DNA from: Cirrosporium novae-zelandiae
Taxonomy: Eukaryota
DNA length: 64,000 nt
Reading direction: 5' to 3'
Assembly: GCA_026023565.1 (NCBI GenBank)
Contig: JAPETS010000001.1
Span: 1,674,001 to 1,738,000 of the forward strand
In this document: positions 10,370 to 36,598 of the stretch, piece by piece
Layout of the letters: each line of letters starts with the position of its first letter
Position numbering within the stretch: the stretch's first letter is position 1
Program-made: the position numbers and the translations under genes
The notes under the pieces: model-generated
The model's input: only the letters and a program-made list of their open reading frames with translations
Database searches by the model: none
What the model was told of the DNA's origin: nothing

Positions 10370-12334
10370 TCATTCCAGCCCCCTCCTTAAAGCCCGATCC
10401 ATCCTCTCGTTCCCACCTCCGTATTCCATTAGACTCCCATCACTCCTGCTACTCTCCGAATCCGAACCCCTCCTCCTAGGCTCCCCATCCAAAAGGGGTT
10501 CATACTCCCGTCGCACAATATCCACAACATTCGAATCCGCATCCAACTTATCCGCCTCAATCAAATCCACATTCTGAACCAACATCAACAAGAAAAACGG
10601 AAAACATGCCACTACTAGCGACACAATCAACATCATATGCATAACCTCATCGTAGGCTTTAGCGATGGCAACACGCTCGGGGCTTCCAGGAGGATAAGAG
10701 AGCGCTACGAGGATGGAGTCACGGATTTTTGGAACGAGATGGCGGGATTCTGCAGGAAGGTATTTAGTGAGGAGGGGGGGTAGTTGGTGTGACCAGATTG
10801 CACCGGAGATGGCGTCACCAACTGCACCGCCGACGGAAGATAATGTTGCTTGAAGAGCGGTGGCGGCGGCGACATCTGCGGGGGGTTAGGGCATAAAAAT
10901 GAAGAGAGAAGTCGGGATAGAAAACTAACCCTGACGAGGAACCGTTGCTTGGAGACCTGTCAAATTTGTGGTCATGATTCCGCCAACACCCATTCCCATC
11001 ACCATCTGTGCTATGACAAGCTGAACGGTACTACTGGTGACCTTGCGAAAAGACAACATGAGGATGCCCCCTAAAATCTTCATCACACCTCCCATCAATG
11101 CGAATTTCTTGAACCTTCCGGTGCGCTTGGCCGCAAATCCGACCACAAGGCCGACGATGGTAGATGTGAACGTCTGCGCCAAAGTAATGTTATTCGCGGC
11201 TTCGACGGCAAAGTTCTGCGCCACGAGCAGATAAGAGAAGAAGTATGGTTGGTAGATATAAAAGGAGCAGAACACGCAGAAACTAACACCACAGGAGGCG
11301 GCTACGGAGGTGCTTTTTGCGAGCTGGAAAGACAATACGGGGTGCTTGGCCATGTGAAGTTCGTAAATTGGGAAAGCAATGACGCTGACAATGCCAGTGA
11401 TAAGCATCGCAAGGACAGAGGGGGAGGTCCATCTATCTATATAGCGAGCTGACACGGAGATGGGTATTAATATTAGGGTCAAGCCGCCTGTGAAGAGACT
11501 TAGACCGATGGCGTCGAACCTGGAGATCATGGCTTTGAAGGATCGAGGTGTTGTCCTGCGCTTTGGAGTCGTGACCATTGTTTCACGGCTCTTTCTCCAA
11601 AGCGCTATCAGGAGGGGAAGCGATATCAACGGTACGATAACAGCCCTGTAAGGTCGGATATTAGGGGAGTTCAATAGCGACTGGGCTGATGTACGTACCA
11701 CATGGCATAGCCTCTAAAAACAGTTAGTGTTTCATTTCCACATATCCAAAATTTCAGTCGATGTTACTCACAACCTCCAATGATCTGGCACCAACTTTGC
11801 GACAATGATGCTTCCCAACCATGTAGTAAATAAGAATGGGCTCATAAGCATCGCATTTCCCAGTGTGCGGTTCTCAAGGCTTGTCGTGTCGGCAATGAAG
11901 ATTGTCTCCATGAACTGCAACCCGACCTGACCGAGGGTATAGGAAATCTGGCCGGCGCTGAAGGTCATGGCGTTGGGAGAGGATGCCAAGATAATGAAAC
12001 CGATGGTGATGATGACTGTGAAAACGGCAAAAGAAAGGAGGCGGCCATAGAGGTCGGCAAAACGGGCGACGGGAGCTTTGCCTACTGCGTAGCTGGAGTT
12101 GGATGATGTTAGCGGATATTGGAAAAGCTAGCCTTGATGACTATGGAATGCTGGTACATACACGATGTTCTGAATCGTCGTGACCGTTCCTAGCATAGAG
12201 TGTGCATCAAAAAAAGAGATGGCATAGGATTGAAAAGAAAAAACAGTTTGAGCGTCGAACGAGAGCGCCGTAGCCAAAAGATAGAGACCGATCCATATTG
12301 TGTATATATTCCACGATTCCTTAGAAGAAGACAT
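10370..12334 (-). CDS. Siderophore-iron transporter, MFS SIT/ARN (MirA/MirB-like), multi-exon
   Basis: Motifs SYAISFFDAHSMLGTVTTIQNI, ARFADLYGR, FIADTTSLENR, FDAIGLSLF, YIYQPYFFSYL, AISGAIW and YPPGSPERVAIAKAYDEVM. Located directly downstream of the NRPS. Confidence 0.88.
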
Positions 12335-12809
12335 CTTTGAACGTGAAAAACCGCTTTACTCTCTCGTTAAGGGAGGGAGAGAGAGAGTAAAGTGGTGGTG
12401 TAATTTCGGCTGGAGGTAATAACAAAAAGCAAAAGAGAGATGTGATAAGAGACATAATTCAGAAGTCATAGCGAAGAAGTATGTTTAAAGGATGCGAGAC
12501 GATAATAGTAGGCTTCTAAGCCTAGGTGGAAGTGGGTCTTTTTTGAGAAGCCTTTCGGATCATGTTCTTTGGAGGAGGTGACATCAGAATTGGTAAGGAA
12601 AGGTTGTAATAAATTACTGAGATTACCGCGGTTAAGAGGTTAAGATGCTAATGAATATCGATGGCTTTAAGGGAAAGGAGGAAGGAAGTAGTTAGGTGTG
12701 TATTGTGTATACTATGTATGGAACGGTGTTACATCCCCCTAGGAGCTGGTGAGATGTGAATTGATTGGAATGATGGCCGTCGTTCGCAATCACACGGCAT
12801 GGTCGGATC

Positions 12810-12818
12810 ATCTGATAA
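12810..12818 (+). promoter_or_regulatory. SreA-type iron-repression GATA box ATCTGATAA upstream of the SIT gene
   Basis: Exact match to the ATCWGATAA consensus about 480 bp upstream of the SIT ATG. Confidence 0.6.
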
Positions 12819-13123
12819 GACAAGTAGCCGCTTATGATAAATGCCAAGGAGGCTAGTCCACCACGCTAGGACCATTTCCATCTTCGCTCCGAACTTTCTC
12901 CTTTCCCACGGACTCCTCCCCCGGAAGATCGTAAACTTCATCAAGAACCATTCATTCCTTTTGATGTGTGAATATATATTTTTAAACAATTCTATGCTAC
13001 AAAACTCACTATCCAACAGCCAGTTTTCAAACATAAATACACAGGCAATCTATCTACATTCATGAGTCTTACAATCCCTGAACTGAAGGATTAAAGGTCT
13101 AAACTTCAACCAATTCAAGCTTA

Positions 13124-16100: not shown

Positions 16101-19100
16101 GTAATTATGTCTTTCGTGGTTAACGTTGGAATATCCTTTGAATACTGTGAGAGTAAATTTTTGTCCGCAAGTAATGGCCGTGATGGTTTTTGCCCTTGGT
16201 TTAGGGACCTGCTTTTGACTCGTGCCCACAGTGCAGTAATACAAGGATAACGTATTACATCAGAAGATGAGATTGGTAACCCAGAATCGCGAAGGCGTTT
16301 CGCAAAGCGAATTGCGATTACAGAATCAATGCCTAGGCGATAGAAAGACGTGCTCTTGCCAATGTCTTTGAGTGAAACCTTACAGGTACTAGAAACAATT
16401 TCTCTCATTGTATTTTCTTCACTGGTCCAATTTTGCTCTTCCAAAAGCTCAGTGTTGGCTGTAGAAGAACCATCAACTTCAGCATTCACCAAACCCATAC
16501 TCTTCAAAGACAAAGTTTCACCTCGAGAGAAGCCTTCTAGCAACAGGTCAACTTGCTCGAGCAAAGAGTCGACATCAACAGTGTTGCGGAAAGTAGAAGT
16601 TGCCGCTGTACGAACAACTATTTTATCTGTTTGAGTTTTTGTTTCAAATTCGATGGCAAAAGGATAATCGGCAGGCATTGAACTTTCAACTTCAGTCCAA
16701 AGGGACTCATAAGTAGCACTTTCGTTAGCCTTGATATAGGAGAAGAGAATGTCAAATAATTGTTGATGGCCAACCCATCGTTGGATGAGACGTAACGGGG
16801 TATGTTGATGTTGTAGCAATTCTATGCTCGACTTATGGACATTTAATACAACATCTGAAAAGGTCTCCATTGCATCCTCAATTTGAATACGTTGGGGAAC
16901 AGTAGTAACGCATGGAGCTAGTATGGACTCAATATCATCGATGGGCAAGGTACGGCCGGAGAGCACTGAGCCAAAAATAACATCTTTTTGTTTAGCAATT
17001 TTAGCCAGAAGGACCCCAAAAACTGCTCTCGCTACAGAGGGCACTGTGGCTCCAATATGTGAAGCTGCTCTTTCGAGAGATGAAAGTTTAGCACCAAGCA
17101 AGCGCTCAGACGTAAAGGCTTTTTCCCTATCATTGGTGGATTGCTTCACAATAATAGTAGGCTTGCAATTCTTAAGATGAGTCTCCCAGAATTTCCTAGC
17201 TAATTGTGGATCCTGAGCAGCAAGATATTCAAGAAGATGAATGACAGGGGCTTGAAACGCAGGCTCAAGTTTTTTGTATAAACGGGAAAGCTCTTCCATA
17301 AGCATTGAGAAGCATTCTCCATCATATATTGAATGATGAAGAGATATTGATAGGAATGAATTTGCATCTGTCGAAACAGCTCTTGCAAGATGAAGTCTTA
17401 CAGGAGGTACTCTCTGGATACTCGCAACAATCTCTGAAGCAATCTGCTGTCTTGCTGCGCGTAAGCGATTTAATGTTGTATCATCATCAAAGGACAGCGA
17501 TTCATTCCAAGCTCCAGGAGACGCATCGGGAGCAAGGATTACTTGACACAGGTTATCATCGTCGGGTTGGTAGAAATATGTCCTAAGCATGCTGGTAAAA
17601 GCCGTTAGCGTGCTCCACGCGTTCTTGAAGAGATCTAAATCCACTTCTGAAGACAGCTTAAGAAGTACATGGTTCACATAGAGAGCCTGCCCTGGGTTGT
17701 TTATGGAGCTGGCGACTAGGGCTTCTTGCAGCGGAAGACAGGGCATGACAGCTTCGATAGAGGCCTCCGAAAGACCCATAGTCCGAGCCACTTGGGGAAG
17801 AAGGCAAGCTTGCATGTCACTTAGATGCTTCTGGGCCGATGCAAGTGCAATGGCATTTGTTTTATCCGTGGTTTTTTGCATCACCAAGAGTGCCAACTGC
17901 TCGATTATGGGATTGCTTAACACATCAGCAACGGAGATGCTGCAACCCAGTTTCCGAAGCCTAATAGAGAGACTTATAGCAGTCAAACTGTCTATTCCAA
18001 ATTGGAAGATACTAGATGTATGTTTCACAGAACAAGGATCGATTTTGATTGTGCTGACTAGAGCATCTCGAATCTTTTCTTCGGTTTCCGTCAATTCACG
18101 TTCTACTCGACCTTTAGTGTTGTTGGAATGCTCCTGACCAAGAAGCTCCGAAAGAGGTATAGAAGCAAAGAGTGCTTTGAGCTTCTTGGCATCCGCTTTC
18201 CCTGAAATGGGTGCCAGAGGTATAAAGGAGACTGGTATAATAACATCAGGTACCATATATGCTGGAAGTAGCTGACGGCAAGCTTCCTGAAGTTTGAGTG
18301 CTGTTTCGGCTCCGTCGGAGTTGAACCTGGGTTCTTGGTTTCGAGAAGATGGCCGATTTGCTGAATTAGATACAAATGAAATAAGCTGAGGTCTTGATAG
18401 GTCAGGATGTCGACTTATCAATGTTGCAGTGTCAACACCGTATTCAGCTGCAGCTTTGATTGTTTCTGAGACCTCCCCAAGTTCAAGGCGTTGACCTCTG
18501 ATTTTAGCTTGGTCATCGCCGCGTCCAAGGTATTCAATGGAGTCATCGGCCATCATTCTTACGATATCACCAGTGCGATACATCCTACAACCGTGGAAAT
18601 TTTCAATAAAAGCTCCAGAATTTGGGATTTTGTGGTAGCCGTTGGCTACAAGGCTTCCAGTGAGACAAAGCTCGCCAGGCTGCCCTCGTTTAGCAGGAAT
18701 AATGGTGCCAGGTAAAAGAACATATGCTGTTGTGTCTGCAAAAACCCATCCAATATTTCGCGTAGTACCCTTGGGGTCAATTTTCCGTACAGTGCACCCG
18801 ACAGTGACCTCTGTAGGTCCGTAAGCATTAAAGAGAGTGATATCTTCATCCGTAGCCCAAGTACTCAGGGTGTGTTCAGATAACTTTTCTCCCCCAACAG
18901 ATAAGAATTTAAGAGAAGGCACATCGGAAGGAGTCAGGTCAGCCTGGTCAAGGAGTGATGGCACGAAACTTGCATGAGTCACTCCTAGTTGCTTGATAGA
19001 GAGTCCAAGGTCATCCAACAGCATTGATCTAGCTCCCGTGACCGCTGTAAGTCCAAGGCGCCACGCTAGAAACATCTCAGAAACGTGAACATCAAATGCT

Positions 19101-22100
19101 CGGCTAGCAAGGCCAAGGTACTTGCCTAGGCCGGCTAGTTTTCGAGTGACGGGAGAGTTCTCGTGGATGATTCCACAGTAGGCTTCAATAAAGGTAGAAA
19201 GGTTGCCTCTTCCTACTAAAACGCCCTTTGGCTTTCCAGTTGAACCGGATGTATATAGTAAATACGAAGAGTCGCTAGGCTGCAGCCAGTCTCTGGATAT
19301 ATTTTCCGAAGCAAGACTTTGTAGCGCATCCAAGTAATCTGGATCATCAATGCAGACTAATTGGGTATTTTTAGGTATACTACCGAAAGTATTTGCAAGG
19401 TCGCGAGTAGTGAAAAGAATAGCAGTATCGCTATCCTCAACAAGCAAGTTCTTACGGTCTGGTGGAAGACTTTCCTCTATAGGAAGATATGTGTTGCCAG
19501 ACTTGAAGATCCCGACAATGGTGGCGTAAGCGTCAAGCGTACGACCAACGCACATAGCAACAACGGATCTTTTGATGCCAGCATTGTCAATGAAATTTGC
19601 AACTTGATTAGATATAGAGTTAAGGGTTGCGAAATCCCATCTCTCCGATTTTGCACCGTCCTCTGTGATAGTACTCGCCACTTCAGCAGCAATCCACTGC
19701 GGATGGTTTTGCGCATGATATTCTACCCAATAAGTGGGATCTTGATTGAACGCGGCCTTGGTAGAATCGTCTGGTATGGAACTTGAAATGGCTAGCAGAG
19801 ATTTGGGAAGTTGGTTTGCTAGCTCCAAGATTGGTTCGTCGGGTAATTGGACTATAGCGCTGATAAGTGCATCTATCTGGAGTGAAATAATCTTCAGGTG
19901 TGCGTTGTTCACAAGGCGATTGTCTGCAGATATGGACAGATCTAGACCGTTTTTGCTTGGGTACACATTCAAGGCTAATGGATGTTCAACTTGTAGCCCA
20001 ACAATATCTTCATATTCACTCCAAATGGCTTCGACTGCGGATTGTTCATCATTATGATCAGGATGTAACGTGAATGCAGCTGGATACAGGGGGTTTGATG
20101 CTGGCTTTTGCAGAATTCGTCTAATAAAGCCAGGCGAGACATGGCGATAGTCCAGTGCCTCATTCGAAAGTCTTGTAAGCTCTTGTATCACCCCTCTTGC
20201 TGTATCGCGTACTTGGACCGGTACAGGGGTTGTAGTGATAAGCGGTGCTACAGTATTCTCCAATGATGGATGTTGTAACCGATCCGATAGCACTTCGGTG
20301 AATACGACTGCAGGGCTTTCCAAGTAATCAGCAAGGATACAACCCCAGGCAACTTTAATAATCGTTCCAAATGAAGAAGCTCCTAACTGCTTAGCTGCCA
20401 TTTCGAGTTGATGGATAGATAAAGTTGACTCTATTCTGTGCGTGATGAATGCCTCCCTTGACTTTTTAGTAGTGGCTTTACCAGTTAGATCTGGCCAAGT
20501 GCTTGCATCAGGGTCTACAAAGTCTTTAAGCACTTGTGACCAAAACCTTTCAGTTTTGGTTTTGTGGTCTCCGTCTCGAGGTAAGGTTAGAGCCAAAGCC
20601 TGAGTGAGCTGCGATCGTTGTTTGGCCTCCTTCCCACCATATAAGGCTTGAACATCATCGAGAATGAATTGTAAAGAAGGTCCATCATGAATAGAATGGT
20701 GTAGGGTTAGCATCATAAATGATTCAGAACCATTAAAAAGGGTTATTTCCCAAGGAGGGCGAACAATATCACTTCTATGATGTAATGTTGCAATGTCTTC
20801 AGCGCGGGTTTTGACACGCCGTGAAAATTCGGAAGGTGTAACATCCTCAACTGTCCGCGGGAGTTGTGCTCCGTCAAATACGAGCTGCAAGAAAGCTGGA
20901 CGGCTTTCTTCAAATGTGCCATCTTCTACCAGCTCCGCCGTGGCAATGAATGCAGTTCTAAGCGCCTGCGTGGTTGATATGACATCAACCCAGGCTTTGC
21001 GTAACCGGTCTATATCCACGGTTTTTGGAAGGCGAAAGACATGGCTGCTCCAGTATGATGCAGGTGTTCGAGCAGTCTCACTTAGAATACCTTCCTGCAG
21101 AGAAGAACAAGGCAATACTGTAAATGCACCGTTCACTTTTAACGCCACTGACGCATGCCACTGACGGTCAAACTTTTGCAGTGTAGATTCTGCCGAACTA
21201 TGGATATTGGAAGTAACTGACTCGATTTCGCCCATCATAGAGGCCAGATGCCGGATTGTTCGACTTCGCATGACTTGGGATACGGAGAGATGATGACCGG
21301 CTTCATTTAACTTAGCTGTCAACCGAATGGAGCGGATTGAGTCGATGCCTAATGTCTGCAGACCAGCGGTTCTCTCTATTAGCTCTTGAGGAGTCTGCGT
21401 CAATTCATGAATGAGCTTGAGCAAAAGCTGTTCAGCTTTGCTCCATGTGGAAGTATCGTCCTGGAGACTTGTCGGATTAACTCGTTGCTCCCAGCTTGAA
21501 CAATCGACAGTTGAGTACACTGCAGCGAGGGCCTTTCGATCCTCTTTAGCAGATGGAGTCCGAGGAATGTGCTTGACCACAAGAAAAAACTGAGGAATCA
21601 TATAGTCTGGTAAAGACTGCTCAGCTGCTGCTAAACCCGCCCGTGAAATGTCCACAGCTTCATCACTGGTTATAAGTAAGGAATCATTTTCCTCATATAA
21701 TCTGGGTGAAGCAAGGAATGCGACGAGCACCTTTGTGGGACGGTCAGGGCGACTTAGGTGGAGAGTAGTTACTTGGTCCACGAATGGATGACATTTCTCT
21801 AGTGCGAAGCTGATTTCACTCAACTCAACACGAATACCCGCAAGTTTGATAAGGTCATCTTGACGACCGATGAACTCAAGACTACCGTCGTGTAACATGC
21901 GTACTGTGTCGCCCGTCAAATAAACACGCTGCTGAAGCTCTGGGCTGAAGACGAATCTAGCAGATGATTTTTCTGGATCGTTGAGATACCCTCTAGCCAC
22001 TTGATACCCTCCTAAGGCAAGCTCCCCCACTCCATTCTTCATGAGGACGTGGCCATCTTTCATACTGAAACATGAAACTGGGCTTAGGGGCCATCCAACG

Positions 22101-25100
22101 TTAGAGGGTTTGATATCGTCAGTCGTCCCATGGAATTGTCTCAATGTAGCAACAACAGTACTTTCTGCAGGACCGTATGTATTGAATGCTTGCATGTTTT
22201 GGGCCCAGTTATCAGCAACGTTATCGGGCAACTTTTCACCTATCATAGTGATAACTTCCAAGGTATGGCAAGCTTCACGAGGGACGACAGCACCATATGA
22301 TGGAGTTAAATGGGCATGAGTAGCCTTGGTGGTATTTGCAAGTTTGGCAAATGACCCAATCATGATCTCACGAGGCGAGGAAATAACAGTACCTCCAAGG
22401 CCCCATGTATAAAACAGGTCCTGGACAAATACATCAAAGGTGTAAGCAGAGAACTGCATGCAGCGAGGGGGGCCGTTGGACGAGGGCGGAATGGAATCCT
22501 GGAGAGCTTTCATACTATTTACGGCTGCTTGATGTTCTACTTGCACACCTTTCGGGGCACCAGTAGTTCCACTAGTCCAGATTAGATACGCGAGATGGTT
22601 AGGCCTTGCCACTGCTGTAATTTGCTCTAGCAGATGGGCATCTGCAAGTGGAGATGGATTGTTCAACACCTTTCCGACATCAACAGTTACCACATTTTGT
22701 GGAATGGCAGCGGGATCTTGTGTACTTGTGCTGCCTGCTAGAAGTAGTACCGAGGAACCAGTTCTCACGACAAGATCATGACGTCGCTGCGGAGGAGCTG
22801 CCGTGTCTATGGGACACCACCCGCCACCAGCTTTCAATATTGCAAGGAGAGCTACATATAATTCCGGGCTTCTCTCGATGCATATTGGGACTGCAGTATC
22901 TGTGAATGGACCAAAAGTCTTCACAAGATAGCTAGCAAGCAAGTCTGCCATTTCGTTTAGCTCATTGTATGTCAATTGTACATTTAATGGGCTTGCTTCA
23001 GACTGTAAATCGCCCTTGAATAACAGCGCGACGTCATTAGGTCGATCCTGAGCAAATGCTTCAAATTGAGCATGCAAGAAACCATATCTATTGTCACTAG
23101 GAATCAAAGATGAAGGGGAGGGATTAGCAATTGATTGAAGCTCTTGTCGGACGGCGGAACAGCCTGATGTGACGGAAAGTTCAGGATTTTCGAGCAGATG
23201 ATCAAGGACATCATCCAGCTGTTTAAGCATAAGGCGTGTAACTGGCTCAGACAAGTGGCTGTCCTTAAATGTAGCTTTAAGTCGTAGGGAATCATTAACA
23301 TCAGGCCAAACTTCGACCATTACCGGAAAGTCATTAGCCATGGGTGGATACTCGATAGAGTCCCATGTTTCAGAATGCTCGCGCCCTGAACCGAACAGTT
23401 GAAATGCCAAGAGGGTATCATAGGGAAGGCCGCCAGAATTTGTCATAAGAGAGCGGAGAGGTATTTGTACGTGGGGTAAACTCTCAATATTTTCAATTGT
23501 TAGAGCTTGTAAAAGTGATGCATTCGTGATTTCAGGAGAAATTTTTACCCGTACAGGGACGGTGGTGAATGTTGGACCCATACAGATCTCGGAATCATCA
23601 TCCAATCGACCAGACAATACGCTTCCGAAAGAAATTTCATTAGCTCCGGATTCTGAATATGTGGATAGGATTATAGCCCAAGATGCTTGTAGGGCTGAGA
23701 GTGGAGAACAACGAATAGAGGATGCTTTTGCCAAAAGATTCGAAAACGACATTTTAGACACTACATTGGCGGTGTCCACGAGTCCTTTGCTCCTTTTAGG
23801 GCGTAAGGCGGTTAGACATGGAAATGGTTCTGGTGAAAACTCTTTTAATTTTTCGGACCAGTACTTTTTACTGCTTTCGAGGTCTGCTGCGAAGTGCATG
23901 TCAACAGCTTTATTCAGCTGCATTCTTCTTGGTAGTTGTTGGTGATAATATTCCGCCAACACCTCTTCTATTAGAAGCTGCAGTGAGCCCCCATCAAAGA
24001 TTGCATGGAAGAGACTTAATACAACCGCAACTTGAGATGACGACTTGACCAGCGCGATTGACCAGGTTGGTCGCTCCAGATCAATTTCTTCTTCGGCTTT
24101 GAACAGAGCCTTTTGTACGGCGGTTGAAAAAGTATCGTTTGCCTCGTTGCAGGAAATATATCTCCAGTATCTCAAATTTTTCTTGACCAACTCACACGAA
24201 GGTGATAGTATACACTGGGCAAAGGGCGATAGTTCGTCATCGATTGGAACAAAGACAGTACGGAAGCAGTCATGACGGGCCAAAATAATATTGAAGCAGT
24301 GTTGCAAGTGGCCATAATCGACGGAGGAGGAGAGATGATAAACATTGTGGTTGATGTACGAATGGCTACGCAAAAAGCTACTCAGCATACCAGACTGTGT
24401 GGCGGTTGTAGGTAGAATCTTTTCGATATCTTGCGACACGAGGCCAAGGTGGTTGTAGCAGCGAGAGCTATTTCTGATTCCAAAATCTTTCAATAAAATC
24501 TGCCATGCCTTGCGGCTAGCTATTGGGCTCTCGATGCTCTGCACATATCTTTCGCCATTCTCATTCCGGCCCTTTTGACGTTCTTCAACAAGAGAAGCAA
24601 TTCCTTGAGCTGAACTGCCACGGAAAACATCGCCAATTGTAAGCTCGACAACGCCCTCTGATCTAGCAGTCTGAAGGAACTTCATCGCGCGAAGGCTGTC
24701 GATGCCAAGGCTCAGAATATTAGTAGAAGGCGCAATCTGATCTAACGTTTGGTTAATAGTCCGAGCCAAGAGTGAGCGAATGTGATCCAATAGGCCTATG
24801 CTTGTGGAATCTTGCGGATTAGGCGTTATCTGATCGGAGCTGGAATGTCCGTTTGTGAGCTTATGGCCGTTCATGACAGGATCATTGGAAATTTTGTCAG
24901 CGATGAGTTTGGAGATAGCTCTTCTGTCTAGCTTCCCGGAAGGTGACCGCGGCAAACTCGACATGAAAATATATCTCCATGGCCGCAAGTAGGGCAACAA
25001 TTGCTCTTCAGCGATCTTCTTGCAGGCACTCTCCGTATTTACTTCGTCTAGATCCTCAGGATCTGGTACAATGACTGCAATTAACTGTTCACTGCCTTGA

Positions 25101-27379: not shown

Positions 27380-27965
27380 GGTGAGAATTACAGAGATTGA
27401 GAAGTTCTAAGTGAACGAAGAGAGGAGAATTGTGTTTGTTTTCGTAGGAAAAGTACCGCAAGGGACGCAGTACCATAAGCTCCAGGTACAGACTTAGAGA
27501 TGATCATCAGAAGCATGCAACATTAGGTATGAGAAACAAGGGTCGAATAGAATTAAAGGCGGCAACGTGCTATGACATCGGAGGTCCAAAGATTTGGATA
27601 TCATCCCGAACGGAGGGGGGTAGAAGATAAAAAAAATATTCGTCAACGTCTAGGGCCAAAAAGACCCACTCAAGCCCGAACCGCGGAAGGATGGAAAAGG
27701 TTTGGTCGACAAATAAGGTACCATGTAACATAATGTAACAGAACGTATCATAACAATACCATCAATACCATTGATCTTCCTTCTAGCTCTAATTGCTGCC
27801 CAGAGATGTAAAAGTCGAAAGAGAAAAAATAAATGAAAACGCAAGTACTCCCTGCTCATCTCTTTAGGACTTTGATTTTTTATAACAAACCTACGGCTTA
27901 ATTCTTTCAGGAATCGGGCATATTCACTCAACTCAATCATATCTTCACACCACTCAACTTTTATC

Positions 27966-28919
27966 ATGTCATCTTCTCCGTCTTCTTCCTCGATCGATGG
28001 CCGTTCTGCAGATGAGATCTCTGCTGCTTCATCTATCGATGAGACTTTGGTTGAGAACTACAGCAGGATCCTGCTTATCACAGGGGCCGGTCAACCCAAT
28101 GGGATTGGACAGGCTGTGGCGCGAGAGGCAGTCCTGAAGCATAAATATGCTGTGGTACTCGGTGCACATTCCCGATCCTCACCAAAACAGCTAGATCAGT
28201 TTGTCGCAGAGCTGAATAAGGCTGCAATCTCTTCAGCCTCTGCATCAGATACTTCCTCGCCGATATCTGTAGCCAAATGGAGCAAATGTGATGTGACCGA
28301 TTGGAAGAGCCTCCAAGCCTTCTTTTCATTCGCGGCAGCCGAGTTTGGAGGTGTCGATGCTGTATTTTGCAATGCAGGTATTGCGGCACCATATAGAAAG
28401 GCAACTTTCAAACAGGAACATTCACCAGACTATCCCACCTTGGATGTGAATTTGACTGGAGCATTGCTTACAATAGAGGCTGCTCTAGCCTTCTTCACAG
28501 ACCATCCACGCCCAAATCAAGTCATTGTCCCGACAACCTCCATGTGCGGCTTCAACCCCAACCCAGCAAATCCTGTATACTGTGCGAGCAAAGCGGCACT
28601 TATCGGGGCAACAATATCTTTTGCCCGTAGACTGGAGTTGTCTGGGAAACCTGTCCGGCTGGCAGCGATAGCACCATATTACCTACGGACAAATTTGTGT
28701 CCGCAAGCTTTTGTTGATCGCATTGGCGAAAACAACCTTGTTCCAATGGAAGCTGTAGTTGGCGTGGTTCTTGACCTGATCTCTCCGGAATCACGGAAAC
28801 ATGGCGTTATTGTGAAAGTCGAACCCATTCAAGTAGAATCGGACAATCAAAATAGCGACAATCAACATCAGGTACTTATTGAGGACTGGATCCCAACGCC
28901 TGTGGATTTTGTGAGTTGA
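27966..28919 (+). CDS. Classical short-chain dehydrogenase/reductase (15-hydroxyprostaglandin dehydrogenase-like), intronless
   Basis: TGAGQPNGIG Rossmann motif, CDVT, NAG, Ser in TTSMCG, and YCASK (YxxxK). Confidence 0.88.
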   Translation: MSSSPSSSSIDGRSADEISAASSIDETLVENYSRILLITGAGQPNGIGQAVAREAVLKHKYAVVLGAHSRSSPKQLDQFVAELNKAAISSASASDTSSPISVAKWSKCDVTDWKSLQAFFSFAAAEFGGVDAVFCNAGIAAPYRKATFKQEHSPDYPTLDVNLTGALLTIEAALAFFTDHPRPNQVIVPTTSMCGFNPNPANPVYCASKAALIGATISFARRLELSGKPVRLAAIAPYYLRTNLCPQAFVDRIGENNLVPMEAVVGVVLDLISPESRKHGVIVKVEPIQVESDNQNSDNQHQVLIEDWIPTPVDFVS

Positions 28920-29470
28920 CCTCATCTCTTTGGCACTTCATACATGACCTCGCTACTCCTTATTCAAGTACAAAGCTAACGATTTCCAATTTAACATGAT
29001 TAGTATGGGATACCAATGTAAGCGATGTACTTTACACGGCAACTGTAGAGCAAAAGTGGGATGATTGGGATGGTTCCAATGAAAATGTGGAGGAAAGAAA
29101 TGTCACAGGTGGTATTTGTTAAAAGGATTTTAGATCAAAGGGGCAGAAGCGAATTTAGGAAGTTGGAAGGATTAAAGTTTAGGGTGGGGGGGGGAATACA
29201 TAAGCCGGCGGCCCTTTGTTTGGGTTCCATCACCGTGCCAAAAGTCAATGCAAAACATTTTCCGTTGTTGGTAAAGATATGCTTTAGATAAGAAGGATAT
29301 TCTAGATATAAAGCAAAAAGCAAGATCCAACTTCACAAAGATCATCTATCTACATGTGCTTCTATATAAATTTAACTCTTGGTATTGTTTGCGACGGGGG
29401 TTGGCCTACGTCATCTTAATACAAATAGCAGCCAACAACTCCATTTTATTGAGATTATTCTCAAGGTACT

Positions 29471-30861
29471 CTATATTGTGGTAGGTTCATCCCCCCAGTG
29501 GAATGGACATAGTCTAAAGAAGTTCTCACGCGAACACAAGACAAGAGCAGCTCGTTTATGCGGGAAGTCGATAGTCTTGTCAATGTGAAAGCCATGGTCA
29601 ACCTCATAAGCTATGATCTTTTTTCCTGAAGCTCGAGGCTCGCCAACCAAACGATCTGTCCGCGGGTCATCCAACAGCATATAGTGCATGACTGCCGACA
29701 TCCATGCTCGTACACGGTGCGGTCCACGGAACCGATCTTCTCCCACCAAAGCATGCCAGCCACGATCGTATTCACCAGCATCGAAATATGCGCCGACTGT
29801 ATCTTCCTATATTTTAAACGTAGATGCAATCAGCCACTGCCATCTGATAGTGAAATTGAATTGGAGGGTCCTGAATTTACCATAGCCCAATACACTTCAA
29901 AATAGGCAAAGAAATTATCGTCGAATCGTCCGAGCAAGGAGATTAGATGCCTGTCCTCATGTGACTTGCGTAAATACTCGCGATGTTCCTCCAGAGTACC
30001 AGTTTCATTCCACGCGGCTGCCACACGGGGGTCGTTTTGCCATTTGTTAAATAACTTTACATGCTCATCGTTTTTCCAATCCAATGCCACAAGTGACAAG
30101 TGCTCTCCCAAGTGTGGAATATAGCGGGTATAGACAACTTCACCTGGTGTGGGTTTTGATGGTCGAATAGGATGACGTGCAAAAACTCGGGCTTCAGGAA
30201 ATCTGGACGTGAATATATAATCGAGAGGTCTCACGGGGTAAGATGATGCGGAACGCTGAAGGCCTTGTCCACTAGCATCAGGTGCCCAGGGAGCTCGAGT
30301 TCCAAAAGGTGAGCCTGCTCCTTGCCAGAAAGAACATCTAGTAACCAGTAGTTCATCGTCGACAGCAATAGACGCCGGGATGTTTTTGTTTCCATCCCCA
30401 AGGGATGGCAGAGGAGTTTCAATGGCCAACCCGACTAGTAGTAGCTGTGTGCGTATTTGGGCACTTTCTGGTCCATCTAGAATCAATCGAAAGCTTTCTT
30501 GCCCTGGGCGGATGGTGAACAACGCGTATATAGTCAGCCAAGCCTGTTCAACCGACGGCACTCCGCCCTCGCTCCAGGAAAATTTGGTCAAAGGAGACCT
30601 TCTGGCACGCGCCCAAGGTGTATTGTCATCAGCGGGTGGTGCGCCATCCTCAATGCTGACAGGCTCGGAGAAGGCCAGCGACTGGTGATGTAAAACCGGT
30701 GTTGAAAACGTTTGTTCTTTGTCAACCGGCTCTAATCGGAAGGTCTGCTGTTCGTCCTGTTTTGCCTGCAGGAGCAGTTTATTGATGCGATACGCCGACA
30801 GCCAAGGATGCGGTAGACGCAAGATTGAATAATCTATCTTGTTCTGTGTAGTAGAACCCAT
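29471..30861 (-). CDS. N5-hydroxyornithine acyltransferase, IucB/AlcB GNAT family (SidF/SidL-like), 2 exons
   Basis: Motifs NTPWARARRSP, FWQGAGSPFG, HPIRPSKP, YTRYIPHL, WQNDPRVAAAWNETG, YFEVYWAM | EDTVG...DRGWHALVGE, LLDDPRT and DFPHKRAAL. Intron 29880-29807. Confidence 0.9.
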
Positions 30862-31177
30862 TATGGACTTAATTATGTCTTCTCTTCTGCGGGTTTCTCT
30901 TTGCGACTGCGATTCAAGGACTCAATTGATGCGGAAAGCAAAAACGCAAGAGATGATGATGCATTGTGGAAGTAATTAATTAGCAAAGTACACCTTATGC
31001 CAACTGGGAAATAAGTGCGTGGCCAAAAAAAGTACAGGACAGCGGAACAAGGGCCAAGAAGCACCACAAAAGACGCCATTGATGTCTTCAATACTCAGCA
31101 CGGTATCCACATATCAATTGTAACTAGGAGCTTGAGTACTGAAAATTTTTGCTTGTACTGTGCATAGGCTGAATGGG

Positions 31178-31818
31178 ATCAGATTAGATTGATCATTCAT
31201 CATTGCCTCATCATGAACGTCGGCCACCTTGACTAATAACTTTTAGGTCCGAAGCCAATGAATCACACTTGGGGGATATTAAGTCATACTACCCGGGCAT
31301 CTTTTCGTGGAGAAAGACCACTTTGGACCTGCCAAGCAGTCTGGTCAAAGTCTCGACCACACAAGGTAGAAATGTGGTTGAAACAATTTAAGACTTATTG
31401 CCGATTATCGGAGAAAATCTGATTAGATATGGTAACGGGTTTCAATTATCTGATCGCCTTATCCCTGGATGGGTTAGGAGGTGGCCGGAGGATTCGTATG
31501 ATGTGGGTAGATAAAGCAGCGGGTGGGGTGTTTCTTCAGTAGTGAGGGCCCATGCAGTCCAAGTAAAGTTATCAGATGGACCTAACAAAGTCTTAAACCG
31601 TCTTGTATTCCGGTGACTAAATTAATCTTACTACTGAGGACACGGTATCCGAGGTTGGCTTTCTGTCACAACCCAACATATTTGTCCCTTGATCAATTTA
31701 TGGTTGTCATACTTATGGTCCGTGGTCCATGTGATGAGAAATTTTCAATAGATTCAACAGACATGAACCATGATGCTTGAACTTCTTTTGGTTCCATGCA
31801 GATTAGATGATCAGATTA
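31178..31818. promoter_or_regulatory. Cluster of SreA-type GATA boxes in the divergent acyltransferase/ABC promoter
   Basis: Perfect TTATCTGAT (31446-31454) and TTATCAGAT (31569-31577), both ATCWGATAA on the minus strand. One-mismatch ATCWGATTA at 31178, 31417 and 31810. Confidence 0.7.
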
Positions 31819-32364
31819 GATGAATCGGACAAGCTGTTGAAGAAAATTAATAGCAACGACTCCACCTTAGGTCCTTGATGAAACGGTATGACGATGCACC
31901 AAAGCACCAATACGCCATTGACCTCCCATCTTTCGTACATTCCGTATCGTACTGTTTTGCCATGTTTTGTCATGGTATTGCTCTATGCTATGTGTCTGGT
32001 TATGAAAATTTCTCATCGCTTGTTTGGCTATTTCGATCTGCATCCCAAACTTCCGGCTGTTCCCTACTTCTTCCACGATCAATTGTTCAGTCTATTTTGC
32101 AATGCCAGATACGATGCCACCACGTTTGGACTGTCAGAGTGGATATTTGCTTGAGGAAGGCATTGGGCCCCCTGCTCATCATCATCCTCCACTATCCTCC
32201 TTCTTAGCGCTAATGGCTTTTATGGCCAATTGGTTTCACCGCCGGCATTCCGCTGGCATTGAAACATCTTAGAAGCGTAAAAGTTGTTTCTTCAAATCGT
32301 CATATCTGAAGGCTATGAAGGCTGTAGACGTTCTGGAGACCTTTTTGGAGCATAACGAGCGAAC

Positions 32365-35300
32365 ATGAGCCAGACTGAATCCTCTGAAGCTGAGGAGAGA
32401 AATCGTCCAAATAGCAAGTGGAGGAAATATGTGAGTTGGTCTTTGCATATACAATAGAATTGATTATGTTCTGCTTCTCGTCACGCGTATGGGATACTAA
32501 TGAATTCGACCTTGACAGTTTCCCTTCCAAGCCAAATTACGGAATCCACATTCTCTTGAGAAGAGCTCCGGATTCTTTCGTTTACTGTTTCGAACTGGTC
32601 CAAATGCCACCGACATTCTGCTGATAGTTGTGGGCACCATATCAGCAATAGCCTCTGGCATTCCATTTCCCCTCCTTGGCATACTCTTCGGTCAACTTTT
32701 GGATGATGTCAATTCAGCAAGCTGTAGCTCAGATACCGATCTGTCTGGATTTGAAAATGGTGTTCGTACAAAAGTTCTATATGTGATATACGTTGGAATT
32801 GCCAATTTTGGTTTCATATATATCTATACCAGTTGTTGGAGTTTGGCTGGAGAAAGACTTATACGGCGTCTGCGACTACGTTACTTTCAAGCTCTCCTGC
32901 GTCAAGAAATTGCTTTTACAGAGAGTCTTCCTCAAGGAGAGGTATCTTCCCGTTTGACTGCAGACCTCGAGACCATTCAAACTGGCACGTCGGAAAAGGT
33001 TGGAATATGTCTCGCTAGCGTATCTTATTTTGTTGCTGCATATATTGTCTCTTTCATAAAGGCGGCTAGGCTTGCCGGAATTCTTATATCACTTGTTCCG
33101 GCATTCCTGCTCATGGCGCTGATCGGAGGTAAATTCATCGAAAGATACGCAGCTCGAACAACAGATCATATAGCTGCCGCAACGTCAATTGCCTCGGAAA
33201 GTCTGGTTAACATGAAGATTGTACACGCATTCGGAGCAAAATCTCGGCTAGAAACTCTCTATGCCCAACGTCTATCTCAAGGGCTTCGGGACGCGCTCAA
33301 AAAGGCGTTTGCAAGTGCTGCTCAACTTGGAACAATGTTCTTCATTGGCTATTCTGCCAATGCCCTGGCTTTCTGGGAAGGGAGCAGAATGATTGCGGAG
33401 AATGTTGGCGGCAACTCTAGTAATCCCTCTGTTGGGTCGATCTACACGGTTATATTCCTTCTAGTTGATGGTGAGTTTACAATCATTTATCATACCCGTG
33501 TTCTAGAGGATAGGACATACAACACAAGAATTTTGTAAATGGATACTTGTTGACACTTTGCAGCTTCATTTATAATTAGTCAAATTGCACCGCTTTTACA
33601 TATATTCGGCTCTGCGGCTGGCTCGGCTGACAAATTGCTCGACACGATCGGTCGACAATCAGCTATTGACGGAACAACATCAGACCAGGGTCGGACAGTC
33701 AATAACATCTCGGGTGACTTTGAGTTTCAGGATGTCGTCTTCTCGTACCCATCTCGGCCAGATACTGAAGTACTCCATGCCATAAACTTGCGGATTCCAG
33801 CTGGCAAGCACACGGCAATTGTTGGCTTGTCTGGGAGTGGAAAATCTACAATCGCAGCCCTTGTGGAAAGACTGTATGATGTTAGCGGAGGCAAGATCTT
33901 AGTTGACGGTAATGACATCCGGGAGCTCAACGTCCGCCAGCTGCGGTCTTATATGGGTTTTGTGCAAGAGCAGCCAACTCTACTAGACCGGTCAATTCTA
34001 GAGAATATAGCTCACGGTTTAATCAATTCGCCTAGAGAGAGCCATGCACACTTGAAACCAGTTTTGATGAATTCTAGCCTTGAAGATGTCGCCAAAGCGA
34101 TTAGAAACGGTGTCGACGCTTCAACCGCGTTCGCTAAAGCCGGAAGTGCCGTCCAAGAGGTCTGGAAATTAGTCAGACAAGCCGCAACCATGACCAATGC
34201 CGTGGATTTCATTGATAATCTTCCCCACGGCTTTGCAACCACCGTTGGCTCCTCAGGATGCTATCTTAGTGGGGGTCAGAAGCAGAGAATTGCCATTGCA
34301 CGTGCTCTTGTCCGGGAGCCAAACATTCTCATTCTAGATGAAGCTACTGCAGCCCTGGATGCCACAAGCGAAAGACTGATTCAAGGAGCATTAGATCAAG
34401 CAGCTGAAGGACGGACAACTTTATCAATTGCACATCGTCTTGCTACCATAAAAAATGCCCACAACATTATTGTCTTTGAACGCGGCCATGTCGTTGAGCA
34501 GGGAACTCACACTGAACTTCTGGCAAAGGATGGAGCATATGCAAGAATGGTTCACCTTCAATCGCTTGCTCGTCGAGATAGCTCCGCATCTTCTAGCACA
34601 ACCCCCGCTCATAGTGGGGAGGACTCGACTATTTCTTCTAAGGACCTAGTATCTCCAGCAGACTCCGCCGATTTCGAAAAGAATACAGAAGGTGGATCTC
34701 CTAAACCAAAAATTAAAGAGATCCCTTCATCCGAGCAGGGTCTAGCTACAGATGATGACAAGCAGTCTAAATCCTTCTTTTCTACTTTCTGTGTTATCAC
34801 ACGTCCCCAATTAGCGTTGATCTTCCTGGGTCTTGCGGCTTCAACTATCACCGGAGGGGCTTATGCTGGCGAGTCTGTCATCTTCGGTCACACCGTTGGT
34901 GCTCTCAGTACCTGTCGGGCCGAGTCCCAGATCAGGAGCAGCGGGAATCTCTATGGACTTTTGTTCTTTATGCTTGCTATCATCGAGCTGATTGCATACA
35001 TGGTCAACGGTACAGCATTTGGGTGGGCTTCCGAAAAGATCCTTTATCGAGTTCGCGTTAAATCTTTACACTCGTTATTACACCAAGACATCCAATGGCA
35101 TGAGTCTGAAGATCGGACTCCGTCGACTCTACTCAACTATTTGAGCACGGATGCCAATGCTCTCGCCAGTCTGACTGGTGTAATACTCGGGACAATCTTC
35201 TCAATCTTAGTCAATCTCGTTACTGCTCTTATCCTCGCTCATGCAATCGCATGGAAAATTGCTGTTGTTCTATTAGCGACAATGCCGGTGGTTCTAATAG

Positions 35301-36598
35301 CTGGATTTCTACGGTTGCGCGTTTTGGCCCAGTTCAAGGAACGACATCAGAAAGCATTTGCACAATCTGTCAGCATCACGATGGAAGCCATGAAAGCTAA
35401 CAAAACCATTGCAACCCTCTCTTTGGAGCAAGAAACTTTCCAGGTGTATCGTCGATCATTGCAAGGTCCATTTGAGGCTGTCTTGAAAGGGGTGGCTTAT
35501 GCGAATTTCTGGCTCGCAAGTGCTTTTAGTATCACTTTTTTCGTTTACGCTCTGGCTTATTGGTGGGGGGCAAAACAGGTTGCTTCCGGGTTATATTCGT
35601 CAACTCAATTCTTCATTGTGCTACCTCTACTCTTAGGTAGCACTCAGACCTGTGGGCAGATGTTTTCTCTCGCACCAGATGCTGCAAAAGCCAAGGTTTC
35701 TGCCCTAAACGTAGCGGGGTTGTTGGATATTGGCCCCAAAGACTATGAGGATCATTCAAATAACACAAGCGATCCGACAAATAGGGTAGATGATACTGAT
35801 ATTGAAAAGACCGCGGATGCTCAACCTTTAGCAACCACCGATGAAGGAGTAAGCATCTCAATCCGCGATGTTGAGTTTTCATATCCAGCCAGACCAGAAG
35901 CGCAGGTTTTGCGGGGCCTGAGCATGGATATTCTCCCCGGCCAATTCTGTGCCCTCGTGGGACCAAGCGGGTCAGGGAAATCGACCATCATCGCGCTTCT
36001 CGAGCAATTTTACCCCATCAGCGCTGGCTCCATCACCATCGACGGCCTTGACATCTCTCGAAGCGATGGTGAAATTCTCCGTCGAGAAATGGCTCTTGTT
36101 CCACAAGACTGCGTCCTCTTCGAAGAAACAATCCGCTTCAACGTTGCCCTTGGCGCCAACCCTCGCCACCAAGTCACCGATACCGAAATCGAAGAAGCAT
36201 GCAGACAAGCAAACATCCACGACACCATCGCATCTCTGCCAGATGGCTACAACACCAAATGCGGACCCAACGGCTCCCAGTTCTCCGGTGGCCAAAGACA
36301 GCGCTTAGCGATCGCACGTGCTCTCATCCGCAAACCAAGGCTTCTGCTGCTCGATGAGCCCACGAGCGCCTTGGACGCCGATTCGGAGCGATTGCTACAG
36401 GTCACCTTGGATAAACTCATCGCTTCGAAGAATGTCACTGTTGTTACAATCGCGCATCGACTTCACACGATCCGCAATGCAGACGTTATATTCATGATCG
36501 AGCAAGGTCGGTGCGTTGACCGTGGTACCCACGCCGAACTTATCGAACGAAGTGAAAGCTATCGACAGAATTCGCAACACCAGGCACTAGGGGACTAA
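32365..36598 (+). CDS. Full-size ABCB/MDR1-type ABC exporter (TMD-NBD-TMD-NBD), SitT-like
   Basis: ATG at 32365, introns at about 32431-32518 and 33470-33563. Walker A GLSGSGKS and GPSGSGKS, signatures LSGGQKQR and FSGGQRQR, Walker B ILILDEAT and LLLLDEPT. Confidence 0.92.

What the first reader, a model, noticed from the sequence alone, without database searches (positions are those of the whole stretch)
10370..36598. Compact ferrichrome-type cluster with both an exporter and an importer: probably a secreted siderophore
Seen: SIT importer, SidC-type NRPS, SDR, hydroxyornithine acyltransferase and ABCB exporter are contiguous, and SreA boxes occur in two of their promoters. Known: Aspergillus SidC makes mainly intracellular ferricrocin. 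From memory, the Fusarium NPS1 locus (secreted malonichrome) clusters an NRPS, an IucB-like acyltransferase, an ABC transporter and an MFS transporter. Inference: this locus makes an exported cyclic hexapeptide hydroxamate with its own acylation step and re-uptake system.
Basis: partly seen in the sequence, partly recalled or inferred. Interest (0 to 1): 0.75.

Follow-up and report, generated by a model that had tools for sequence, protein, structure and literature searches.

The report
Fungal secreted ferrichrome-type siderophore gene cluster
Five neighbouring fungal genes most likely build, export and re-import an iron-scavenging cyclic peptide, a known kind of cluster, although a few unusual features leave open that the molecule carries a new side chain.

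Summary
Five intact genes fill 10370-36598: a divergent SIT-like MFS, a 4727-aa Type II ferrichrome NRPS, an SDR, a SidF-type acyltransferase and a SitT-like ABCB. Three exact SreA boxes lie in two promoters (0.074 expected); the NRPS/SDR promoter has none. Secretion is likely (about 0.78), mainly because of the rest of the genome: it holds a second, NPS2-lineage ferrichrome NRPS beside sidA and a SidL-like enzyme, and no SidD or SidI orthologue was found. That mirrors Epichloe (SidN plus ferricrocin). The Fusarium NPS1/malonichrome comparison fits by function only: the A1 and A2 pockets match SidC (15/16, 16/16), and the ABC is ABCB-type, not YOR1-like. NRPS + acylase + ABC + SIT clusters are already described (Ustilago fer, Fusarium C63, Zymoseptoria cluster 14), and SidC-linked SidF-type genes recur in eight other species. 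What differs here: an SDR with no close relatives sits where A. terreus has sidI, the acyltransferase lacks a PTS1, and the A3 pocket code (Ser239) occurs in 0 of 90 relatives. A non-acetyl acyl group is therefore possible but not shown. No expression or chemistry data were available.

The parts
10370..12334 (-). SIT/ARN-like MFS transporter, 576 aa, 5 exons (12334-12162, 12092-11772, 11713-11699, 11645-10930, 10875-10370); strongly diverged
   Evidence: Model equals P0278; ESM Atlas neighbours named siderochrome/siderophore iron transporters, score 0.99, TM 0.81; word-index search with one exon found only itself among 6375 candidates; best paralogues in own genome 28-34%
12810..12818 (+). Exact SreA-type box ATCTGATAA in the MFS promoter (one-mismatch site also at 12440)
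   Evidence: motif from PMC2610380
13124..27379 (-). Type II ferrichrome NRPS, 4727 aa, A-T-C-A-T-C-A-T-C-T-C-T-C, SidC lineage; intron 26932-26861
   Evidence: 40-43% to SidC-type proteins, 26% to the genome's own NPS2-type enzyme; last-A-domain tree
18185..19744 (-). Third adenylation domain (acyl-hydroxyornithine activating); pocket code DVSSSGAVG(K), Ser at GrsA position 239
   Evidence: Best PDB match Epichloe SidN A3, 3ITE, E 1.2e-146; code in 0 of 90 relatives; Ser239 in 0 of 90
27380..27965 (.). 586-bp divergent promoter shared by NRPS and SDR; no exact or one-mismatch ATCWGATAA, one plain AGATAA
27966..28919 (+). Classical SDR, 317 aa unspliced (a 319-aa form with a short last exon ending at 29018 is also possible); no close relatives; role unknown
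   Evidence: Pfam adh_short; best non-self hits E 1e-29 (multi-repeat protein) and 1e-18, identities 25-39% among the 149 listed; no paralogue above E 1.6e-7 in own genome; motifs intact
29471..30861 (-). SidF-type N5-hydroxyornithine acyltransferase, 438 aa, intron 29880-29807, no PTS1 at the C-terminus
   Evidence: 41 of 48 named relatives end in K/R-L/M
31178..31821 (.). Divergent acyltransferase/ABC promoter: exact ATCWGATAA at 31446 and 31569, and ATCWGATTAGAT at 31178, 31417 and 31810
   Evidence: the 12-mer occurs 37 times genome-wide, 3 here and 1 in the NPS2/sidA promoter
32365..36598 (+). Full-length ABCB (P-glycoprotein-like) transporter, 1350 aa, 3 exons, SitT/AbcI-like
   Evidence: the ABC beside a SidD-type NRPS and SidF-type gene in L009 finds this gene as its best match in the genome, 44% and E 1e-211 vs 31% and E 9e-83 for the next

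Best explanation
This locus is the dedicated extracellular arm of a two-synthetase siderophore system. N5-hydroxyornithine comes from the single sidA on another contig (gene shown, flux inferred). The clustered SidF-type enzyme, which lacks a PTS1 and so is probably cytosolic, acylates it (family shown; location and donor inferred). The Type II NRPS activates a Ser-type residue (A1), Gly (A2) and the acyl-hydroxyornithine (A3, used iteratively) and releases a cyclic ferrichrome-type peptide (architecture shown; substrates inferred from pocket identity with AnSidC). The SitT-like ABCB exports the iron-free form, the SIT takes the ferric form back, and SreA represses at least the transporter and acyltransferase genes when iron is plentiful (all inferred). 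The NPS2-type NRPS beside sidA, with the SidL-like GNAT, supplies the intracellular ferricrocin-type pool. My split for the acyl group, given this model: acetyl about 0.5; a known larger or charged group (malonyl, methylglutaconyl, anhydromevalonyl) about 0.25; an undescribed one, possibly shaped by the SDR, about 0.25.
For: Gene set and integrity. Promoter boxes 3 vs 0.074 expected, and three exact boxes in the NPS2/sidA promoter. A two-finger GATA factor with a Cys-rich segment exists in the genome. Second ferrichrome NRPS on C13 (5025-aa ORF, 3 A, 6 C) divergent from sidA and grouping with NPS2-type enzymes. Second GNAT on C41, only 32% to this one and alignable only in the C-terminal part, without boxes, as expected of SidL. 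No SidD orthologue: a SidD-type query matched at most 42% and essentially only over its first 1147 of 1844 residues. The ABC is the genome's best match to a SidD-cluster ABC. Precedents: Epichloe SidN + P-gp-like abcI secreting epichloenin A beside a separate ferricrocin NRPS (PMC3642064); Xanthoria sidA-sitT-sidC with ferrichrome in supernatant; A. terreus sidC-sidI-sidF-like with ferrichrysin in supernatant.
Against: No expression, chemical or genetic data. The NRPS/SDR promoter itself has no SreA box. In the papers read, export by SitT-type ABCs is only called possible (PMC2610380), and one paper lists SitT among uptake transporters (PMC5932178). The SIT could not be placed in a characterised subfamily; some SITs are intracellular (MirC), and it carries one acidic dileucine-like motif (its meaning as a sorting signal is recalled). 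The assembly has 128 contigs and no completeness value, so the absence of sidD and sidI is provisional. Pocket codes predict fungal substrates poorly (PMC2644324; PMC5932178).
Confidence: 0.78

Rival explanations
1. The NRPS is an ordinary SidC making a mainly intracellular acetyl ferricrocin or ferrichrome, redundant with the NPS2-type enzyme; the SIT works at the vacuole and the ABC moves little product.
For: A1 and A2 pockets match AnSidC at 15/16 and 16/16; SidF-type enzymes accept acetyl-CoA (bioRxiv 2024.08.20.608788); no box in the NRPS promoter; dileucine-like motif in the SIT tail.
Against: A second, sidA-linked NPS2-type synthetase already covers this role; the A3 pocket matches AnSidC at only 9/16; no SidD to supply an extracellular siderophore; boxes lie upstream of both transporters.
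Confidence: 0.1
2. Remnant cluster: the acyltransferase, ABC and SIT are left over from a lost sidD-type cluster and now serve the NPS2 product or foreign siderophores; their place beside this NRPS is incidental and the SDR is a passenger.
For: The ABC's nearest relative in hand lies beside a SidD-type NRPS (L009); boxes mark the transporter and acyltransferase promoters but not the NRPS promoter; the SDR had no match in 11 of 11 metagenome loci around SidF-type genes.
Against: SidC and a SidF-type gene lie 2-4 accessions apart in 8 other species from two classes; SidC-type NRPS + SitT-type ABC linkage is published; the NRPS is intact. For the SDR alone, passenger status is not excluded (about even odds).
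Confidence: 0.08
3. The locus is the orthologue of Fusarium NPS1 (cluster C63) and makes malonichrome.
For: Same four gene classes; a PTS1-less acyltransferase would suit cytosolic malonyl-CoA (general knowledge); hydroxyl residue at A3 position 239 (Ser here, Thr in FgNPS1).
Against: A1 pocket 6/16 and A3 7/16 to FgNPS1 (hand counts); ABCB here vs YOR1-like in C63; the closest sequences are SidC-type. FgNPS1 itself was not among the 120 listed hits, so no tree test was possible.
Confidence: 0.04

Closest known systems
Epichloe festucae sidN/abcI (epichloenin A) plus separate ferricrocin NRPS (PMC3642064)
   Same: Type II ferrichrome NRPS with a P-glycoprotein-like ABC; second ferrichrome NRPS elsewhere; no third siderophore NRPS reported; SidN A3 is the best PDB match.
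   Different: sidN is clustered only with abcI. The SidN A3 pocket has three Gly where this enzyme has Ser (9/17 identical). SidN uses anhydromevalonyl, for which no SidI orthologue was found here.
Eurotiales sidC-X-sidF-like locus (A. terreus ATEG_05073-05075, ferrichrysin; Paecilomyces, Rasamsonia, A. steynii, A. melleus, A. wentii, A. avenaceus)
   Same: SidC-lineage NRPS two genes from a SidF-type acyltransferase; same A1 code; highest sequence identities.
   Different: In A. terreus the middle gene is sidI, here an SDR (the middle gene of the others was not seen). Their acyltransferases end in a PTS1-like LKL and form a separate clade from this one. A3 position 239 is Ala or Val, not Ser.
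Ustilago maydis fer3/fer5/fer6/fer7 (ferrichrome A) and Zymoseptoria cluster 14 (PMC5561558)
   Same: NRPS + acylase + ABC + SIT in one cluster; A1 pocket 15/16, A3 10/16 with the same Ser239.
   Different: fer6 is annotated as MRP-type, this ABC is ABCB; no enoyl-CoA hydratase (fer4) in this cluster; an SDR instead.
Fusarium graminearum NPS1 cluster C63 (malonichrome)
   Same: Four gene classes; coexists with NPS2; extracellular product.
   Different: A1 and A3 pockets differ; ABC annotated YOR1-like; Fusarium also has NPS6.
Xanthoria parietina sidA-sitT-sidC (ferrichrome; PMC13462969)
   Same: SidC-type NRPS clustered with SitT, no SidD, SidI or SidH, product in supernatant.
   Different: Compact two-A NRPS, sidA inside the cluster, SidL and SITs elsewhere.

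Membership tests
Type II ferrichrome synthetase (NPS1/SidC lineage) | 3 A and 5 C domains in the order A-T-C x3, T-C x2 | tested here: met
   definition in PMC2644324 and PMC3642064
Type II ferrichrome synthetase (NPS1/SidC lineage) | Terminal A domain groups with SidC, not NPS2 | tested here: met
   SH-aLRT 100 for the 29-row SidC clade; 42-row quick tree, one domain, midpoint root
Type II ferrichrome synthetase (NPS1/SidC lineage) | Makes a cyclic trihydroxamate peptide | not testable with these tools
   needs LC-MS
Ferricrocin synthetase (A. nidulans/A. fumigatus SidC sensu stricto) | A1 and A2 pockets as in AnSidC | tested here: met
   15/16 and 16/16
Ferricrocin synthetase (A. nidulans/A. 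fumigatus SidC sensu stricto) | A3 pocket as in acetyl-hydroxyornithine SidC (Leu239) | tested here: not met
   9/16; Ser239; code in 0 of 90 relatives. Such codes are weak predictors.
FgNPS1 malonichrome synthetase | A1 (Ala) and A3 pockets as in FgNPS1 | tested here: not met
   6/16 and 7/16, hand counts
FgNPS1 malonichrome synthetase | Phylogenetic grouping with FgNPS1 | not testable with these tools
   FgNPS1 sequence was not among the 120 listed hits
SidF-clade acyltransferase | Similarity to SidF over both N-terminal and GNAT domains | tested here: met
   7qf6 residues 20-339, E 8.5e-93; N-terminal 8kd8 E 4.6e-30
SidF-clade acyltransferase | C-terminal PTS1 (peroxisomal) | tested here: not met
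   C-terminus has no PTS1; 41 of 48 named relatives have one by a K/R-L/M rule
SIT/ARN siderophore-iron transporter | DHA2-like MFS fold with SIT-family similarity | tested here: met
   ESM Atlas features 0.99 and TM 0.81-0.88, automatic names; hydropathy scan gave 10 segments at a strict threshold, so 14 TM was not confirmed
SIT/ARN siderophore-iron transporter | Plasma-membrane uptake of the ferri-siderophore; subfamily (Sit1, Sit2, MirB-D) | not testable with these tools
   no characterised SIT sequence retrieved
SitT/AbcI/ABC1 siderophore-cluster ABCB | Full-length ABCB most similar to ABCs of siderophore clusters | tested here: inconclusive
   ABCB met; one-way best hit from the L009 cluster ABC; A. 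fumigatus SitT itself was not compared
SreA regulon | ATCWGATAA enriched in promoters and an SreA gene present | tested here: met
   two of three promoter regions; two GATA fingers plus Cys-rich segment on C48
SreA regulon | Iron-repressed transcription | not testable with these tools
   no reads could be examined

The most novel reading that the evidence does not exclude
The cluster makes a secreted ferrichrome with an undescribed N5-acyl group. The orphan SDR, placed where A. terreus has the mevalonyl-CoA ligase SidI, would supply or modify a cytosolic acyl-CoA (for example by reducing a 3-ketoacyl to a 3-hydroxyacyl group). The PTS1-less SidF-type enzyme would transfer it, a re-shaped Ser-lined A3 pocket would select it, and the strongly diverged SIT would act as a private receptor. 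This would be a new route to acyl diversity in fungal ferrichromes.
Probability: 0.18. Interest if true: 0.62.

Novelty: new variant of a known kind. Interest (0 to 1): 0.33.

Why it matters
The cluster type is known, so the locus mainly adds an example, from a little-studied class (database label Xylobotryomycetes), of a SidC-lineage enzyme taking the extracellular role where SidD/NPS6 is missing. It also offers a compact test of two open points: whether SitT-type ABCB proteins export siderophores (only called possible in the papers read), and whether A3 position 239 tracks the acyl group (Leu in the acetyl enzymes AnSidC, NPS2, Sib1; Gly in SidN; Ser in Fer3; Thr in NPS1). A new acyl group would be of interest for siderophore chemistry and transporter specificity.

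Tried and rejected
RNA evidence: no RNA holder listed for window 27400-36600, so no reads were laid. AlphaFold of the SIT without alignment: pLDDT 43, unusable, no fold search run. PDB sequence searches with the SIT: nothing meaningful. Word-index search with one SIT exon: only itself; one of three searches went on this, so the ABC got no such search. Metagenome loci around SidF-type genes: 11 loci, 0 with a SidC-type NRPS, SDR or SIT match, 7 with a SidI-like ligase, 1 with a SidD-type NRPS and ABC; 6 are under 8 kb. SidH/Fer4 orthology: 12 ECH_1 matches in the genome, but no reference was in hand, so undecided. Recalled HapX/CBC motif CSAATN12RWT: 0 in three promoter regions; core of the Fusarium C63 motif: only two one-mismatch sites, not pursued. 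Pocket codes of the own NPS2-type enzyme could not be read by the motif script. No tRNA/tmRNA. Paper searches: none holds both 'Cirrosporium' and 'siderophore' (ranking by terms); none holds all five of ferrichrome, NRPS, short-chain dehydrogenase, siderophore gene cluster, fungal (a narrow query in an open-access library). Complex prediction was not run: no binding claim is made. Rejected: NPS1 orthology; 'exporter plus importer is unusual'; reading the product from A-domain codes (A1 code is the same in 86 of 90 relatives, although A. niger makes ferrichrome and A. fumigatus ferricrocin).
Full report
Observation. The five genes are real, adjacent and intact. Gene models built from GT-AG introns have no internal stops: MFS 576 aa, NRPS 4727 aa, SDR 317/319 aa, acyltransferase 438 aa, ABC 1350 aa. 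The NRPS and MFS models equal database proteins P0004 and P0278 letter for letter; the source labels them Cirrosporium novae-zelandiae, class Xylobotryomycetes. The order is MFS(-), NRPS(-), SDR(+), acyltransferase(-), ABC(+), with two divergent promoters. By Pfam the flanking ORFs (hydantoinase-like, WW domain, flavin oxidoreductase) show no link to iron.

SreA boxes. Exact ATCWGATAA occurs 5 times in the window against 1.79 expected, which 2 of 100 shuffles reach: marginal on its own. The genome has 807 sites in 31.4 Mb, with 738 for the reversed control. At that rate the three promoter regions (2878 bp) should hold 0.074 sites and hold 3 (P 6e-5; 1.5e-3 at triple the rate). The variant ATCWGATTAGAT has 37 sites genome-wide; 3 lie in the acyltransferase/ABC promoter and 1 in the NPS2/sidA promoter (I picked this variant after seeing it here). 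The NRPS/SDR promoter has no site even at one mismatch. A GATA factor with two fingers and a Cys-rich segment is on C48. The motif is the one described for A. fumigatus SreA (PMC2610380).

The NRPS. Its architecture is A-T-C-A-T-C-A-T-C-T-C-T-C. In the A3-region search, the best relatives by identity after its own record were from Arachnomyces, Paecilomyces and Rasamsonia (53-55%) and Aspergillus SidC (47-51%); 120 of 1227 hits were listed. A 42-row tree of terminal A domains puts it in the SidC clade (SH-aLRT 100), with no close sister, and puts the genome's other ferrichrome NRPS with NPS2-type enzymes (96). My pocket mapping reproduced the published AnSidC residues 16/16 in all three domains. 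The window's A1 matches AnSidC and Fer3 at 15/16 and FgNPS1 at 6/16 (hand count); A2 matches AnSidC at 16/16. A3 matches Fer3 at 10/16, AnSidC at 9/16 and FgNPS1 at 7/16 (hand count). Its nine-residue code was found in 0 of 90 three-A relatives under 5000 aa (of the 119 non-self hits listed; the other 29 were left out as longer or with a different A count). Position 239 is Leu in 54, Ala in 21, Val in 9, Gly in 4, Cys in 2 and Ser in 0 of the 90. It is Gly in SidN, Ser in Fer3 and Thr in FgNPS1. None of the eight relatives with a linked SidF-type gene has Leu. This suggests that non-Leu residues go with non-acetyl groups, but the relatives are not independent, A. terreus has a linked SidF-type gene and yields ferrichrysin (that it is an acetyl ferrichrome is recalled; its A3 was not in hand), and Bushley et al. 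found no simple code. P. variotii (Ala239) is reported to make ferrirubin and B. cinerea (NRPS3, Ala239) ferrirhodin, but neither passage assigns the product to these enzymes.

The acyltransferase. It aligns with A. fumigatus SidF over both domains, so it is SidF-type, not SidL-type. SidF accepts both acetyl- and anhydromevalonyl-CoA and is peroxisomal through a PTS1. This protein has no PTS1, whereas 41 of 48 named relatives end in K/R-L/M; the exceptions are four Onygenales, Tricladium and two further proteins. In a 59-row tree it groups with five unnamed proteins (100/99), apart from both SidF proper and the SidC-linked Eurotiales enzymes. SidC and a SidF-type gene are two accessions or locus tags apart in Rasamsonia byssochlamydoides, Paecilomyces variotii, P. 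lecythidis, Aspergillus avenaceus, A. steynii, A. wentii and A. melleus, and four apart in Tricladium. I chose most of these pairs because they shared a species or contig length; for Arachnomyces, Phaeomoniella, Phialocephala, Botrytis, Lecanosticta and Cercospora no partner was in hand. In A. terreus the middle gene is sidI.

Transporters. The ABC is P-glycoprotein-like with two complete NBDs. The ABC next to a SidD-type NRPS and SidF-type gene in metagenome locus L009 finds it as the best match in this genome by a wide margin, which fits SitT/AbcI; this is a one-way test. The MFS is SIT-like by language-model features and predicted structure, with automatic names, but is so diverged that a word-index search found no relative. 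Direction of transport and membrane location are inferred.

The SDR. It has intact motifs and no close relative among 1.84 billion representatives (listed identities 25-39%) or in the genome. It was not matched in any of 11 loci around SidF-type genes. It shares a 586-bp promoter with the NRPS and occupies the position of sidI in A. terreus. It may be a tailoring enzyme or a passenger; nothing here decides.

The rest of the genome. Contig C13 has a 5025-aa NRPS ORF with 3 A, 6 C and at least 5 T motifs, divergent from the only strong ornithine monooxygenase match, with three exact boxes between them. C41 has a second Acetyltransf_8 protein, 32% identical and alignable only in its C-terminal part, without boxes: SidL-like by inference. 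A SidD-type query gave no orthologue, and the 24 Condensation matches fall in these two ferrichrome NRPSs, a three-module NRPS (C51), a large NRPS (C83), a probable PKS-NRPS hybrid (C85) and two weak single hits. The ligases found beside SidF-type genes in seven metagenome loci are 63-83% identical in their main alignments (one pair 99%), while the best match in this genome is 45-49% and has no box: probably a paralogue, so SidI seems absent. Calling those ligases SidI is an inference. The assembly has no completeness value. This division, NPS2 + sidA for inside and a transporter-linked Type II enzyme for outside, is the main support for secretion.

Comparison with what is known. NRPS + acylase + ABC + SIT clusters are described for U. 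maydis ferrichrome A and Z. tritici and F. graminearum malonichrome. A Type II NRPS with a P-gp-like ABC and a separate ferricrocin synthetase is described for E. festucae, and SidC + SitT without SidD for X. parietina. The locus works like these. It is a member of the Type II NPS1/SidC lineage, not an FgNPS1 orthologue, and not a plain ferricrocin SidC by its A3 pocket. The combination of SDR, PTS1-less SidF, Ser239 pocket and missing SidI was not found elsewhere in the searches named, which were limited.

What I saw of each paper. PMC13462969: abstract, introduction and results (parts 1-4 of 11). PMC2644324: passages and part 1 of 2 of the structural-modelling section with Table 2. Passages only: PMC4290682, PMC4198257, PMC4528345, PMC11253843, PMC11380514, PMC5932178, PMC2610380, PMC7763231, PMC3642064, PMC5561558, PMC9920419, bioRxiv 10.1101/2024.08.20.608788. 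No supplements were read; those of PMC13462969 (SidC homologues in 53 mycobionts), PMC2644324 and the SidF preprint (GNAT consensus by clade) could bear on lineage and acyl specificity. The gene names SidL, SidI, SidD, SitT and SreA for genes of this genome are my assignments from similarity and context.

Verdict. A real, well-formed cluster, probably for a secreted ferrichrome-type siderophore (0.78). It is a variant of a known kind, interest 0.33. The boldest reading left open, a new SDR-dependent acyl group, gets 0.18.

Noticed in passing
G000:C13:416629-434863 (L019-L021): NPS2-type ferrichrome NRPS divergent from sidA, with three ATCWGATAA boxes within 32 bp in the shared promoter.
   Followed up: yes
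G000:C2:394264-394437: Four exact ATCWGATAA sites within 175 bp, probably the promoter of another iron-regulated gene.
   Followed up: no
G000:C83:35620-55451 (L026-L028): Large multi-module NRPS read in several ORFs, with stops inside some matches; introns or a broken gene, not resolved.
   Followed up: partly
G000:C51:262135-272400 (L024-L025) and C85:803783-814700 (L029-L030): A three-module A-T-C NRPS of 3426 aa and a probable PKS-NRPS hybrid; neither is SidD-like.
   Followed up: partly
G000:C35:396795 and G000:C47:396794: Identical-scoring matches at almost the same coordinate on two contigs suggest duplicated sequence in the assembly.
   Followed up: no
window 10370-10530: The SIT has a long charged C-terminal tail with one [DE]xxxLL motif at residue 532 and a very short N-terminus; possibly a sorting signal.
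   Followed up: no
L036 (G000:C56:206321-210421), position 3453: Another SIT-like gene (28% to the cluster's) has an exact ATCTGATAA nearby; further SIT-like genes on C59 and C43.
   Followed up: partly
window 5994-6002 and 24826-24834: Two more exact ATCWGATAA sites, one just downstream of the hydantoinase-like gene and one inside the NRPS coding sequence; probably chance.
   Followed up: no
window 28911-29018: A possible 93-nt intron would give the SDR an alternative last exon (319 aa); the database model is unspliced (317 aa).
   Followed up: partly
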